DNA of 64,000 nucleotides from Escherichia coli (GTDB lineage: Bacteria > Pseudomonadota > Gammaproteobacteria > Enterobacterales > Enterobacteriaceae): the NCBI RefSeq assembly GCF_045037415.1, contig NZ_CP173438.1, one strand, 5' to 3'. Below are positions 30,422 through 42,253 of this stretch, piece by piece. The translations under genes were made by a program, and so were the position numbers. Position 1 is the stretch's first letter. Every line of letters starts with the position of its first letter. The notes beneath the pieces are model-generated. The model saw only the letters and a program-made list of their open reading frames with translations. It was not told the DNA's origin and did not search any database.

Positions 30422-30604
<183 letters not shown>

Positions 30605-37670: not shown

Positions 37671-37759
37671 TAGTGGAATCGCAGCTTATCTGAGACAATG
37701 AATCGCTTATTCAGCTTCATCATCTTGTTGCGCTCCTTTCATGAGCTAAGCCACATATT

Positions 37760-37965
37760 GCCACTGGCGCAAGGAGCGCGCAGGGGGAGGACAATCGCCT
37801 CCTCCCCCTGCACCCCCGGGCTCTGGCGAACAAAATCGCCGCTGCGCGGTACCTTCAGCTTATCCCCTTCGGCTACCGGGTCGGGCGCGAGGTAACGTCC
37901 TTGTAAGACGCGCCCTCAGCCCACATCCATGTGGGCTGCCCCGGCCTTCGGGGAACGCTTCAGCG
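37760..37965. repeat. GC-rich dyad-dense intergenic block of unassigned family
   Basis: Successive dyads (gggggagg...cctccccc; cagcccacatccatgtgggctg; ccccggccttcggggaa) in ~200 bp with sharply higher GC than flanks; no credible coding frame. Confidence 0.35.
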
Positions 37966-38057
37966 ATTTTGACGCCACCAACACCGGAGCTGTTTGCAAA
38001 TCAAGTACACAAAATATCTAGTTCCTGACCTGACAACTTATATGCCATATCTGATTT

Positions 38058-38141
38058 TTAAAATATCATCTTAAATACGCCAGTCACCACCAGTAGCCCA
38101 ATCAGGAAAATAATCAATACAGCCCAGAGTATAATTTTCAT
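38058..38141 (-). CDS. yohP: Small hydrophobic membrane protein (27 aa)
   Basis: AAGGAA SD 7 nt upstream of ATG; translation MKIILWAVLIIFLIGLLVVTGVFKMIF; below the ORF-track size cutoff; position between dusC and mdtQ matches K-12 yohP (memory). Confidence 0.55.
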   Translation of the reverse strand: MKIILWAVLIIFLIGLLVVTGVFKMIF

Positions 38142-38364
38142 TGGCGTTCCTTTATTTGTGAGTGCTGAATAAGTATAGGAAAAAACGAAGCCCTTTGCCG
38201 CTATCCATAAACGATTAAGATAAATCGGAAGATATCATTCACTTAGTGTATATTTTTCTGGATATGTCGTTTTATTGCTACTGATGTATTGCCACGCGAA
38301 ACTAAAAAATATATCGCAACACACGGTAATCTCCGCGCACCTTTTCTTACCTGATTATTCCCCC

Positions 38365-39801
38365 ATGAATCGTGATTCCTTTTATCCCGCCATCGCCTGT
38401 TTTCCGCTGTTACTGATGCTGGCCGGGTGTGCACCTATGCATGAAACCCGCCAGGCGTTAAGCCAGCAAACGCCCGCTGCACAAGTTGACACCGCATTAC
38501 CCACGGCGCTGAAAAATGGTTGGCCAGACAGCCAATGGTGGCTGGAGTATCACGATAATCAACTCACTTCCTTAATTAACAATGCACTACAGAACGCACC
38601 GGATATGCAGGTGGCTGAACAGCGCATTCAACTGGCTGAAGCCCAGGCGAAGGCAGTTGCTACTCAGGATGGTCCGCAGATCGACTTTTCTGCGGATATG
38701 GAGCGGCAAAAAATGTCTGCAGAAGGGTTAATGGGGCCGTTTGCTCTGAACGATCCTGCCGCAGGTACGACCGGTCCGTGGTACACCAACGGTACTTTTG
38801 GCTTAACGGCGGGCTGGCATCTCGATATCTGGGGAAAGAATCGGGCAGAGGTAACTGCTCGCCTGGGTACGGTTAAAGCACGAGCGGCGGAACGCGAGCA
38901 AACCCGCCAATTGCTGGCTGGCAGCGTAGCCCGCCTGTACTGGGAGTGGCAAACCCAGGCGGCGTTAAACACTGTCTTACAGCAAATCGAAAAAGAGCAG
39001 AACACCATTATCGCCACCGATCGCCAGCTATATCAGAACGGGATTACTTCTTCAGTTGAAGGTGTGGAAACCGATATTAATGCCAGCAAAACCCGGCAGC
39101 AGCTCAACGATGTCGCGGGGAAAATGAAAATTATTGAGGCACGGTTAAGCGCACTTACAAATCACCAGACAAAGGCATTGAAGCTTAATCCGGTCGCGTT
39201 GCCGAAAGTGGCAAGTCAGCTTCCTGATGAACTGGGGTACTCCTTACTGGCCCGGCGGGCAGATTTGCAGGCGGCGCACTGGTACGTTGAGTCATCGTTA
39301 AGCACTATTGATGCGGCAAAAGCGGCATTTTATCCTGACATCAACCTGATGGCCTTCCTGCAACAGGATGCGTTGCACTTAAGCGATCTGTTCCGTCATT
39401 CCGCGCAGCAAATGGGCGTTACGGCAGGCCTGACGCTACCCATTTTCGATAGTGGTCGTCTTAACGCCAACCTCGATATCGCAAAAGCCGAAAGCAACTT
39501 GTCTATCGCCAGCTACAACAAAGCGGTGGTTGAAGCGGTGAATGACGTGGCGCGGGCAGCCAGTCAGGTTCAGACACTGGCGGAGAAAAACCAGCATCAG
39601 GCGCAAATTGAGCGCGATGCCTTGCGTGTAGTAGGTCTTGCGCAGGCGCGCTTTAACGCGGGCATCATTGCGGGTTCCCGCGTCAGCGAAGCCAGAATCC
39701 CCGCGCTGCGTGAGCGGGCCAATGGCCTGTTATTGCAAGGGCAGTGGCTGGATGCCTCCATTCAACTCACTGGTGCGTTGGGCGGGGGTTACAAACGCTG
39801 A
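38365..39801 (+). CDS. mdtQ: Outer-membrane efflux lipoprotein (OprM/NodT family), apparently intact
   Basis: Track ORF trimmed to MNRDSFYPAIACFPLLLMLAGC lipoprotein signal (478 aa); single uninterrupted frame. Confidence 0.75.
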   Translation: MNRDSFYPAIACFPLLLMLAGCAPMHETRQALSQQTPAAQVDTALPTALKNGWPDSQWWLEYHDNQLTSLINNALQNAPDMQVAEQRIQLAEAQAKAVATQDGPQIDFSADMERQKMSAEGLMGPFALNDPAAGTTGPWYTNGTFGLTAGWHLDIWGKNRAEVTARLGTVKARAAEREQTRQLLAGSVARLYWEWQTQAALNTVLQQIEKEQNTIIATDRQLYQNGITSSVEGVETDINASKTRQQLNDVAGKMKIIEARLSALTNHQTKALKLNPVALPKVASQLPDELGYSLLARRADLQAAHWYVESSLSTIDAAKAAFYPDINLMAFLQQDALHLSDLFRHSAQQMGVTAGLTLPIFDSGRLNANLDIAKAESNLSIASYNKAVVEAVNDVARAASQVQTLAEKNQHQAQIERDALRVVGLAQARFNAGIIAGSRVSEARIPALRERANGLLLQGQWLDASIQLTGALGGGYKR

Positions 39802-39853
39802 TGATATGCGCCTTCTATACTTAACGTTTATTCAGCGTTAAGTGGAGAACTCG

Positions 39854-40615
39854 ATGGCACAGGTCGCGATTATTACCGCCTCCGATTCGGGGATCGGCAA
39901 AGAGTGCGCGTTATTACTGGCGCAGCAGGGGTTTGATATTGGCATTACCTGGCACTCAGATGAAGAAGGGGCAAAAGATACCGCGCGTGAGGTAGTTAGC
40001 CACGGCGTACGTGCGGAGATCGTGCAGCTGGATCTCGGCAATCTACCAGAAGGGGCACTGGCGCTGGAGAAACTCATTCAACGGCTGGGGCGTATTGATG
40101 TGCTGGTGAATAATGCGGGCGCAATGACCAAAGCGCCGTTTCTTGATATGGCTTTCGATGAGTGGCGCAAGATTTTTACCGTTGATGTCGATGGTGCATT
40201 TTTATGCTCGCAAATTGCTGCCCGCCAGATGGTGAAACAAGGGCAGGGTGGTCGCATCATCAACATTACGTCGGTGCATGAACATACGCCGTTGCCGGAT
40301 GCCAGCGCCTACACAGCCGCTAAACATGCGCTCGGCGGGTTAACCAAAGCGATGGCGCTGGAGCTGGTCAGGCATAAGATTTTGGTGAATGCGGTTGCAC
40401 CTGGGGCGATCGCCACGCCAATGAACGGCATGGATGATGGCGACGTGAAGCCCGGCGCGGAGCCTTCGATTCCCTTGCGGCGTTTTGGCGCAACGCATGA
40501 GATTGCCAGCCTGGTGGTGTGGCTTTGTTCGGAGGGCGCAAATTACACCACTGGGCAGTCGTTGATAGTGGATGGCGGCTTTATGCTGGCGAATCCGCAG
40601 TTCAACCCAGAATAG
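39854..40615 (+). CDS. yohF: Short-chain dehydrogenase/reductase
   Basis: Track ORF trimmed to MAQVAIITASDSGIGK (253 aa); TGxxxGIG cofactor motif and YxxxK catalytic motif (YTAAKHAL). Confidence 0.8.
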   Translation: MAQVAIITASDSGIGKECALLLAQQGFDIGITWHSDEEGAKDTAREVVSHGVRAEIVQLDLGNLPEGALALEKLIQRLGRIDVLVNNAGAMTKAPFLDMAFDEWRKIFTVDVDGAFLCSQIAARQMVKQGQGGRIINITSVHEHTPLPDASAYTAAKHALGGLTKAMALELVRHKILVNAVAPGAIATPMNGMDDGDVKPGAEPSIPLRRFGATHEIASLVVWLCSEGANYTTGQSLIVDGGFMLANPQFNPE

Positions 40616-42080: not shown

Positions 42081-42253
42081 AAAGTTCTTTTGCGCTGCAT
42101 TGCTGGCGTAAATGTCAGCAATGCAGCATTTCCTCACGATTCTCCTTTGACGATCGCACTTTTTGCTCGTTATGATGGCGTCGCTAGCCTCAGTAAATCC
42201 TTACTCCGGCGGTGCGCAACCCGTGCGCGTGAACCACTATCTGAATGCTCATC

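What the first reader, a model, noticed from the sequence alone, without database searches (positions are those of the whole stretch)
38365..39801. mdtQ appears intact here
A single uninterrupted frame encodes a 478-aa lipoprotein with a canonical lipobox (LLMLAGC) and OprM/NodT-like outer-membrane efflux features. My recollection is that this gene is annotated as a frameshifted pseudogene in K-12 MG1655, so this strain may retain a functional efflux outer-membrane factor.
Basis: partly seen in the sequence, partly recalled or inferred. Interest (0 to 1): 0.3.

Follow-up and report, generated by a model that had tools for sequence, protein, structure and literature searches.

The report
Intact wild-type mdtQ efflux channel gene
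This is the normal, unbroken copy of mdtQ, a poorly studied outer-membrane efflux-channel gene that nearly all E. coli carry intact; the laboratory K-12 lineage is the exception, with a one-base deletion, so the finding is correct but ordinary.

Summary
Window 38365-39801 (+) is one uninterrupted 478-codon frame with a lipoprotein signal peptide (LLMLAGC, Cys22). It matches the NCBIfam MdtQ equivalog model end to end (1023 bits; cutoff 650).

K-12 MG1655 b2139 is annotated as a pseudogene. The lesion is a 1-bp deletion in an A-run: A5 at window 38512-38516, A4 in K-12. It shifts the frame after codon 50.

The intact state is the rule, not a peculiarity of this strain. The A5 allele is in 5017 of 5426 complete E. 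coli genomes. A4 is in 355, and nearly all the listed ones are K-12 laboratory derivatives. A "repaired" K-12 allele is one base away from alleles of many natural isolates, so the lesion is recent.

Pairwise dN/dS among E. coli alleles is about 0.03-0.13. Intact, syntenic orthologs occur in about 75 Enterobacteriaceae species. An AlphaFold model (pLDDT 90.9) matches VceC, OprM, CusC and TolC. No pump gene is adjacent in any species examined, so MdtQ is an orphan channel, and its partner and substrates remain unknown.

A 2025 review already notes that mdtQ is core-genome conserved despite the pseudogene label. Verdict: already known, low interest.

The parts
38365..39801 (+). mdtQ (yohG) coding sequence, 478 aa plus stop; intact
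   Evidence: ORF list and sequence. NF008524 MdtQ equivalog 1023 bits, full length. Annotated mdtQ (WP_001078132.1) in 100%-identical genomes.
38365..38430 (+). Lipoprotein signal peptide (residues 1-22). The lipobox L19-A20-G21-C22 is at 38419-38430. Ala23 at +2 implies sorting to the outer membrane.
   Evidence: Read directly from the translation. Cys22 is invariant in a 116-sequence alignment of relatives at 25-59% identity and is kept in the Enterobacteriaceae orthologs.
38512..38516 (+). A5 homopolymer run; site of the K-12 1-bp deletion (A4) that makes b2139 a pseudogene
   Evidence: Pairwise alignment with MG1655. Allele-specific searches: A5 in 5017 genomes, A4 in 355, A6 in none.
38677..38823 (+). 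First beta-hairpin of the predicted protomer (strands at residues 105-116 and 139-153), contributing to the outer-membrane barrel
   Evidence: AlphaFold2 model, pLDDT 90.9; fold matches to VceC, OprM, CusC and TolC.
39337..39435 (+). Second beta-hairpin (strands at residues 325-336 and 348-357), from the second structural repeat
   Evidence: Pfam reports two OEP stretches.
38142..38364 (.). Divergent yohP-mdtQ intergenic region. No sigma-70 consensus promoter was found, and there is no Shine-Dalgarno complementarity ahead of the mdtQ ATG.
   Evidence: Promoter scan found nothing in this interval. The anti-SD duplex energy is +0.6 kcal/mol for mdtQ and -6.4 for yohF. A marbox pattern search found no site here.
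38058..38141 (-). yohP, a small membrane protein gene transcribed divergently from mdtQ
   Evidence: Annotated in identical genomes; translation MKIILWAVLIIFLIGLLVVTGVFKMIF.
39854..40615 (+). yohF, an SDR oxidoreductase gene 52 nt downstream on the same strand, with no terminator-like site between (possibly co-transcribed). It is absent next to mdtQ in many genera, so it is not an obligate partner.

Best explanation
The feature is the intact, ancestral allele of mdtQ (formerly yohG). It encodes one of the four E. coli TolC-type outer-membrane factors, and belongs to the lipoprotein (NodT/OprM) branch.

Shown here:
- The frame is uninterrupted and matches the MdtQ equivalog model over its full length.
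- It carries a lipobox with an invariant Cys22.
- A confident model has the two-repeat OMF protomer fold, with 4 beta-strands and long helical hairpins.
- The gene is under purifying selection within E. coli. It is kept intact and syntenic (dusC...mdtQ...yohD-yohC) across Enterobacteriaceae.
- K-12's pseudogene differs by a recent 1-bp deletion in an A5 run.

Inferred from established knowledge of the family:
- The precursor is exported by Sec and lipidated at Cys22 (Lgt/LspA/Lnt).
- It is sorted to the outer membrane by Lol, because position +2 is Ala.
- It trimerises into a 12-stranded barrel with a periplasmic helical tunnel.
- It docks on the periplasmic adaptor of an inner-membrane exporter to form a trans-envelope exit duct.

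No adaptor or pump gene lies next to it in any species examined, so it is an orphan channel that must borrow a partner. Its nearest relatives are MdtP-like proteins encoded next to FUSC/PET-type transporters, and VceC, which works with an MFS pump. This points to a non-RND partner, but that is only a lead. The missing Shine-Dalgarno sequence and consensus promoter suggest low or conditional expression.
For: - ORF and lipobox.
- Family assignment: Pfam OEP x2; NF008524 at 1023 bits over 1-478/478 and TIGR01845 at 273 bits.
- K-12 status: pseudogene annotation; lesion mapped to the A-run.
- Allele survey: A5 in 5017 genomes, A4 in 355, A6 in 0, out of 5426.
- Age of the lesion: the repaired K-12 allele is 1 nt from alleles in ATCC 8739, E. 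coli C, ML35 and others.
- Selection: dN/dS is 0.026-0.13, median 0.095, among 10 alleles, and all 8 sampled diverse alleles are intact.
- Beyond E. coli: 78 Enterobacteriaceae species loci at 65-99% identity with conserved synteny and no adjacent pump. Only 3 are clearly disrupted.
- Structure: closest solved relative by sequence is VceC, E=1.7e-39. The model has pLDDT 90.9 and pTM 0.87. Foldseek's best hit is VceC (TM 0.76/0.87), and every significant hit is an OMF.
- Lipid-attachment site: Cys22 is invariant in 116 relatives.
- Partner lead: an MdtP-like relative is encoded directly after a FUSC transporter.
- Literature: mdtQ is core-genome conserved despite the pseudogene label, encoded independently, function not elucidated (PMC11762307). 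K. pneumoniae YohG was identified in an outer-membrane proteome (PMC4404324). MdtQ protein was detected and induced in a porcine isolate (PMC12584432).
Against: - No experiment here shows expression, trimer assembly or transport in this strain.
- No recognisable promoter or ribosome-binding site precedes the gene.
- No partner pump is identifiable from context.
- The gene is dispensable in some backgrounds. K-12 has the frameshift. AVS0051, a strain 100% identical to the window over 24 kb, has an IS1 insertion at codons 1-4. CFSAN061769 has an IS-mediated deletion. S. Typhi and Paratyphi A carry independent truncations (PMC9241588).
- The only drug-susceptibility phenotypes in the literature are mild. 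They appear to come from K-12 backgrounds in which the gene is already broken, so they do not cleanly support function.
Confidence: 0.9

Rival explanations
1. The frame is intact but the gene is effectively silent or cryptic in E. coli. It would be a conserved relic that is not expressed at useful levels, so 'intact' would not mean 'functional efflux factor'.
For: No sigma-70 consensus promoter in the 223-bp upstream region and no Shine-Dalgarno pairing. Repeated independent losses without obvious cost: the K-12 frameshift, IS1 in AVS0051, the ISKpn26 deletion, and Salmonella Typhi truncations. The review states that the function is not elucidated.
Against: dN/dS of about 0.03-0.13 within E. 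coli, and intact orthologs in about 75 of 78 Enterobacteriaceae species representatives, are not expected for an unexpressed gene. The protein was detected in a K. pneumoniae outer-membrane proteome and in a porcine E. coli proteome.
Confidence: 0.08
2. The apparent intactness is an assembly artefact. On this reading a homopolymer miscall restored the frame, and the strain really carries a K-12-like or other frameshift.
For: The K-12 lesion sits in a homopolymer run, which is the kind of site where long-read assemblies make errors. Reads are not available to check.
Against: The A5 allele is present in 5017 of 5426 complete genomes made with many technologies. The window is 100% identical over 24 kb to more than 10 independent assemblies. 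A4 is confined to 355 genomes that are overwhelmingly K-12 laboratory derivatives, and the window's allele differs from K-12's at 28 other positions.
Confidence: 0.01
3. K-12 mdtQ is not really null. Some residual product (frameshift suppression at the A-run, or a restart) would explain the phenotypes of yohG deletions in K-12, so the intact/pseudogene contrast would matter less than it seems.
For: Phenotypes are reported for yohG deletions: drug susceptibility cited in the review, and the Keio delta-yohG strain in a persister screen.
Against: After the deletion the frame meets a stop about 20 codons later. Any restart in the correct frame (the first Met is residue 80) would lack the signal peptide and Cys22. 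An A4 run is a poor slippage site (general knowledge). Polar effects on yohF, or on the divergent yohP, are simpler explanations.
Confidence: 0.03

Closest known systems
MdtQ/YohG of E. coli O157:H7 (UniProt Q8X659; RefSeq WP_001078131.1) and the NCBIfam NF008524 equivalog
   Same: Same gene at the same locus (dusC-yohP-mdtQ-yohF). The EDL933 protein differs at 4 residues. The window protein scores 1023 bits over the full length against the model. The exact protein (WP_001078132.1) is already in RefSeq and is seen on at least 1000 contigs.
   Different: Nothing of substance. The window carries a minority allele: 553 of 5421 genomes are >=99% identical.
K-12 MG1655 mdtQ pseudogene (b2139)
   Same: Orthologous locus, 98% nucleotide identity, 25 synonymous and 3 non-synonymous differences.
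   Different: K-12 lacks one A of the A5 run (window 38512-38516), which truncates the protein after about 70 codons. The lesion is confined to the K-12 lineage and is recent.
MdtP (YjcP) of the mdtNOP operon, the closest E. coli paralog family (NF007390)
   Same: NodT-type lipoprotein OMF. It is the second-best NCBIfam model for the window protein (353 bits), and the nearest non-MdtQ relatives score best as MdtP-like.
   Different: The score is below the MdtP cutoff (597). MdtP is encoded with its adaptor and a FUSC/PET-type transporter, whereas MdtQ is an orphan.
VceC of Vibrio cholerae (PDB 1YC9), the OMF of the VceCAB MFS-type pump
   Same: Closest solved structure by sequence (E=1.7e-39) and by fold (TM 0.76/0.87, 26% identity).
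   Different: VceC is encoded with its pump. It is only about 26% identical to MdtQ, so substrate or partner equivalence cannot be assumed.
OprM, CusC, SilC and TolC outer-membrane channels
   Same: Same protomer architecture, and for OprM, CusC and SilC the same N-terminal lipidation.
   Different: 19-24% identity to OprM, CusC and SilC, and 13% to TolC. TolC is not a lipoprotein. Those channels have defined RND partners, which MdtQ lacks.

Membership tests
MdtQ (NCBIfam NF008524 equivalog) | Full-length match at or above the curated cutoff (650 bits) | tested here: met
   1023.4 bits, residues 1-478 on model positions 1-478 of 478.
MdtQ (NCBIfam NF008524 equivalog) | Orthologous chromosomal position (between dusC/yohP and yohF/yohD) | tested here: met
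   Gene order in the window and in annotated identical genomes. The same position holds in K-12 and across 78 Enterobacteriaceae loci.
NodT-family outer-membrane-factor lipoproteins (TIGR01845; Pfam OEP PF02321) | N-terminal lipoprotein signal peptide with a lipobox cysteine | tested here: met
   LLMLAG-C22. Cys22 is invariant in 116 relatives.
NodT-family outer-membrane-factor lipoproteins (TIGR01845; Pfam OEP PF02321) | Two tandem OEP repeats, with a score above the family thresholds | tested here: met
   PF02321, 2 stretches, 106.6 bits against 22. TIGR01845, 273 bits against 210.
NodT-family outer-membrane-factor lipoproteins (TIGR01845; Pfam OEP PF02321) | Protomer fold of 4 beta-strands plus long antiparallel helices | tested here: met
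   AF2 model with pLDDT 90.9. All 44 Foldseek PDB hits with E<=0.001 are OMFs, best VceC at TM 0.76/0.87. This rests on a prediction, not an experimental structure.
NodT-family outer-membrane-factor lipoproteins (TIGR01845; Pfam OEP PF02321) | Homotrimer forming a 12-stranded barrel in the outer membrane | not testable with these tools
   Only a monomer was modelled. Biochemistry or a structure is needed.
Tripartite efflux system (OMF + periplasmic adaptor + inner-membrane transporter) | A cognate adaptor and transporter, usually encoded nearby | tested here: not met
   No HlyD/MFP, RND, MFS, ABC or FUSC gene lies next to mdtQ in the window or in any of 78 species loci. The extra DNA in Klebsiella, Enterobacter and Kluyvera is a bgl-type PTS operon. 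This lowers 'member of a defined pump', not 'works like an OMF'. TolC is likewise encoded apart from its pumps.
Tripartite efflux system (OMF + periplasmic adaptor + inner-membrane transporter) | Demonstrated substrate export | not testable with these tools
   The literature reports only mild susceptibility changes and states that the function is not elucidated.
K-12-type mdtQ pseudogene | A4 run at the position of window 38512-38516, causing a frameshift | tested here: not met
   The window has A5 and an open frame. It is therefore not the K-12 allele.

The most novel reading that the evidence does not exclude
Almost all E. coli efflux genetics was done in K-12, where mdtQ is null. MdtQ could therefore be a functional alternative exit duct in natural isolates. 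It might serve non-RND pumps (MFS- or PET/FUSC-type) or export an endogenous metabolite under specific conditions, a role that K-12 work has systematically missed. The intact allele in this window would let that be tested directly.
Probability: 0.3. Interest if true: 0.4.

Novelty: already known. Interest (0 to 1): 0.1.

Why it matters
As a finding about this strain it matters little. An intact mdtQ is what about 92% or more of complete E. coli genomes have, RefSeq already annotates this exact protein, and a 2025 TolC review already notes the conflict between the K-12 pseudogene label and core-genome conservation.

The general point is worth keeping in view. K-12 is a natural null for one of only four TolC-family channels, so conclusions about outer-membrane-factor redundancy drawn from K-12 need not hold for wild isolates. 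Published 'delta-yohG' phenotypes obtained in K-12 probably reflect neighbouring genes (yohF, yohP) rather than MdtQ.

Tried and rejected
- I looked for a partner pump by genomic context in 78 species loci and in three metagenomic relatives. None is adjacent to MdtQ orthologs. The 4-5 kb insertion between dusC and mdtQ in Klebsiella, Enterobacter and Kluyvera is a BglG/PTS-EIIBCA/GH1 beta-glucoside operon with a methyltransferase, plus an OprB porin gene in Enterobacter.
- I tested yohF as an obligate partner. It is absent next to mdtQ in many Citrobacter, Klebsiella, Raoultella and Kluyvera genomes.
- I looked for promoter and terminator signals around the gene. None fell in the relevant intervals, and total counts were no higher than in shuffled sequence.
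- I looked for a marbox, because MdtQ protein rose with MarA and MarR in one proteome. There is no site upstream of mdtQ, and window-wide counts equal the chance expectation.
- I tested whether the A-run is a recurrent slippage hotspot. No A6 allele occurs in 5426 genomes. The one non-K-12-named A4 genome (EcN_Sk) carries a gene 1436/1436 identical to K-12's, within a K-12-like 5-kb region, so it is not an independent event.
- I tried to read Sulavik et al. 2001 to verify the strain background of the original yohG deletion. The paper is not held.

Full report
**Observation.** Window 38365-39801 on the + strand is one open frame of 1437 nt, from ATG at 38365 to TGA at 39799-39801, encoding 478 aa. 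The N-terminus, MNRDSFYPAIACFPLLLMLAGCAP, is a typical lipoprotein signal peptide. The lipobox is L-A-G-C, Cys22 would be the lipidated residue, and Ala at +2 is an outer-membrane sorting signal by the established Lol rule. Pfam finds two OEP (PF02321) stretches. NCBIfam gives a full-length match to the MdtQ equivalog NF008524 (1023 bits, cutoff 650, positions 1-478 of 478), with MdtP and the NodT subfamily as weaker hits.

**The K-12 comparison.** NC_000913.3 annotates mdtQ (b2139) as a pseudogene of 1436 bp, and RefSeq marks K-12 derivatives 'frameshifted'. A global alignment shows 28 substitutions and one gap. K-12 lacks one A of the run that is A5 in the window (38512-38516). K-12 therefore reads ...TALK-MVGQTANGG... 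and terminates at about codon 70, while the rest of MdtQ continues in another frame. Any restart would lack the signal peptide and Cys22.

**How unusual is the intact state?** It is not unusual.
- The gene region is found in 5421 of 5426 complete E. coli genomes.
- I designed short queries in which every 28-mer seed must span the A-run and both flanking bases. The A5 allele was found in 5017 genomes, the K-12 A4 allele in 355, and an A6 allele in none.
- The 60 A4 genomes listed are overwhelmingly K-12 laboratory derivatives (MG1655, BW25113, DH1, DH5alpha, JM109, MC4100, C600, J53, S17-1, TG1 and others).
- The one exception by name, 'EcN_Sk', carries a gene 1436/1436 identical to K-12's inside a K-12-like 5-kb region. 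It is not an independent event.
- A K-12 gene with the A restored is 1 nt away from alleles of many natural strains, including ATCC 8739, E. coli C, ML35 and O145 RM9872. The lesion is therefore recent and lineage-specific.
- In a rank-spread sample of 40 genomes, 36 had no net length change, 2 were K-12, 1 had an IS1 insertion and 1 had lost the gene.

**Is the intact gene maintained by selection?**
- All eight diverse alleles I extracted are open. Pairwise Nei-Gojobori dN/dS is 0.026-0.13, median 0.095. Window versus repaired K-12 gives 25 synonymous and 3 non-synonymous differences.
- A scan of one genome per species found orthologs at 65-99% identity in 78 Enterobacteriaceae loci. The genera are Escherichia, Salmonella, Citrobacter, Klebsiella, Raoultella, Enterobacter, Kluyvera, Lelliottia, Leclercia, Pluralibacter, Phytobacter, Yokenella and Superficieibacter.
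- These orthologs always lie in the same dusC...mdtQ...yohD-yohC neighbourhood. Nearly all have a full-length frame and a conserved Cys-Ala-Pro lipidation site. Only three are clearly disrupted.
- The exact window protein is on at least 1000 contigs, in a 90%-identity cluster of 11,156 members.

**How it most likely works.**
- Shown here: the sequence, fold and lipobox are those of a lipoprotein OMF.
- Inferred from the family: Sec export, lipidation at Cys22, Lol sorting, trimerisation into a 12-stranded barrel with a periplasmic tunnel, and docking on an adaptor-transporter complex.
- The partner is unknown. No adaptor or transporter gene is adjacent in the window or in any of the 78 species loci.
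- The extra 4-5 kb between dusC and mdtQ in Klebsiella, Enterobacter and Kluyvera is a bgl-type PTS operon, not a pump.
- yohF, 52 nt downstream with no terminator-like site between, is absent in many genera, so it is not an obligate partner.
- The nearest non-orphan relatives are MdtP-like. One is encoded directly after a FUSC-family transporter, and VceC serves an MFS pump. This weakly suggests a non-RND partner.
- Expression signals are weak. There is no consensus promoter, no Shine-Dalgarno pairing (+0.6 kcal/mol against -6.4 for yohF) and no marbox.
- Even so, the Klebsiella ortholog was found in an outer-membrane proteome (PMC4404324), and MdtQ protein was detected and induced in a porcine E. 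coli isolate (PMC12584432).

**Counter-evidence and caveats.**
- The gene is dispensable in some lineages. K-12 has the frameshift.
- AVS0051, which is 100% identical to the window over 24 kb, has IS1 inserted after ATGAATCGT with a TGAATCGT(G) duplication. PGAP hides this by calling a CTG start.
- CFSAN061769 has an ISKpn26-associated deletion of yohP and mdtQ.
- S. Typhi and Paratyphi A carry independent truncations (PMC9241588).
- Reported delta-yohG phenotypes are mild. At least the Keio-based one comes from K-12, where the gene is already broken. Polar effects on yohF or on the divergent yohP, whose product lowers membrane potential (PMC12719787), are more plausible than loss of MdtQ. This is inference.
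- Read support for the window's A-run cannot be checked here.

**Comparison with what is known, and verdict.** This is the already-annotated wild-type MdtQ (WP_001078132.1). [quoted passage not shown] Novelty: already known. Interest: low (0.1). The residual open question is what MdtQ does and with which pump. It is genuine, but it is not advanced by the mere presence of the intact allele here.

Noticed in passing
L011 1140-1960 (NZ_CP124429.1, strain AVS0051); equivalent to window ~38366-38374: In a strain 100% identical to the window over 24 kb, an IS1 is inserted inside mdtQ just after ATGAATCGT, with target duplication TGAATCGT(G). RefSeq/PGAP still annotates an 'intact' 478-aa mdtQ there by using a CTG start at the IS1 boundary. 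This is an annotation artefact that hides a probable knockout.
   Followed up: yes
L013 3953-5017 (NZ_CP042969.1, strain CFSAN061769): yohP and mdtQ are missing and an IS5-like ISKpn26 element sits in their place. Only the last 63 bases of the 1701-base query (window 38200-39900), at the start of yohF, still match. This is a natural deletion of the gene.
   Followed up: partly
L012 (NZ_CP172017.1, strain 'EcN_Sk'): A 5.06-Mb genome named after Nissle carries a K-12-identical mdtQ pseudogene (1436/1436) in a 5-kb region that is 99.6-100% K-12-like. The TRIP1 repeat segment is inverted or rearranged relative to K-12. Possible explanations are a recombinant, a mislabelled strain or a chimeric assembly.
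   Followed up: partly
window ~37714-38001: The TRIP1c repeat described in the literature (43 bp after the dusC/yohI stop, 363 bp before the mdtQ/yohG start) fills the dusC-yohP spacer. The 65-aa ORF at 37698-37895 is almost certainly spurious. TRIP1a/1c recombination is reported to cause chromosomal rearrangements that place yohG next to ybjE or aqpZ (PMC10888264).
   Followed up: partly
window 62624-62699 (-): Rfam match to the OrzO-P antitoxin sRNA of the zor-orz type I toxin-antitoxin family (98.6 bits, gathering score 60). From memory, this system was described in O157:H7 and is absent from K-12; I did not check that here.
   Followed up: no
window 42169-42249 (+) and 30425-30502 (+): Rfam matches to the Peptidase-S11 RNA motif just upstream of pbpG (72.8 bits) and to naRNA4, a nucleoid-associated REP-derived RNA (88 bits).
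   Followed up: no
window 63214-63530 (-): yehK is split into two short ORFs (61 aa and 39 aa) in the window, and is annotated 'frameshifted' in strain 4/0, which is 100% identical to the window over 27000-51000. This may be a pseudogene that runs the other way from mdtQ, broken here and intact in K-12. The K-12 state is from memory and was not checked.
   Followed up: partly
K-12 literature versus window 38365-39801: Deletion phenotypes are attributed to yohG/mdtQ in K-12: drug susceptibility, and reduced ciprofloxacin persistence of the Keio delta-yohG strain. They come from a background where the gene is already frameshifted. Polar effects on yohF or on the divergent small-protein gene yohP are a likelier cause.
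   Followed up: partly
L046-L056, L061, L065, L083 (Klebsiella, Kluyvera, Enterobacter): region between dusC and mdtQ: A 4-5 kb insertion encodes a BglG-type antiterminator, a PTS EIIBCA and a GH1 phospho-beta-glucosidase. A divergent methyltransferase gene is also present in Klebsiella and Kluyvera, an OprB porin gene in Enterobacter, and a KdgM porin gene after mdtQ in Kluyvera.
   Followed up: yes
L079 (CACSKA010000001.1, 'Chryseobacterium sp. 18061'): A record titled Chryseobacterium carries a typical Enterobacteriaceae dusC-mdtQ-yohF-yohD-yohC locus (DusC 83%, YohC 87% identical to E. coli). The assembly is probably mislabelled or swapped.
   Followed up: no
window 38275-38364: Some public records annotate MdtQ as 508 aa from the in-frame TTG at 38275. 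That start would place the lipoprotein signal peptide 30 residues inside the protein and is probably an over-extension.
   Followed up: partly
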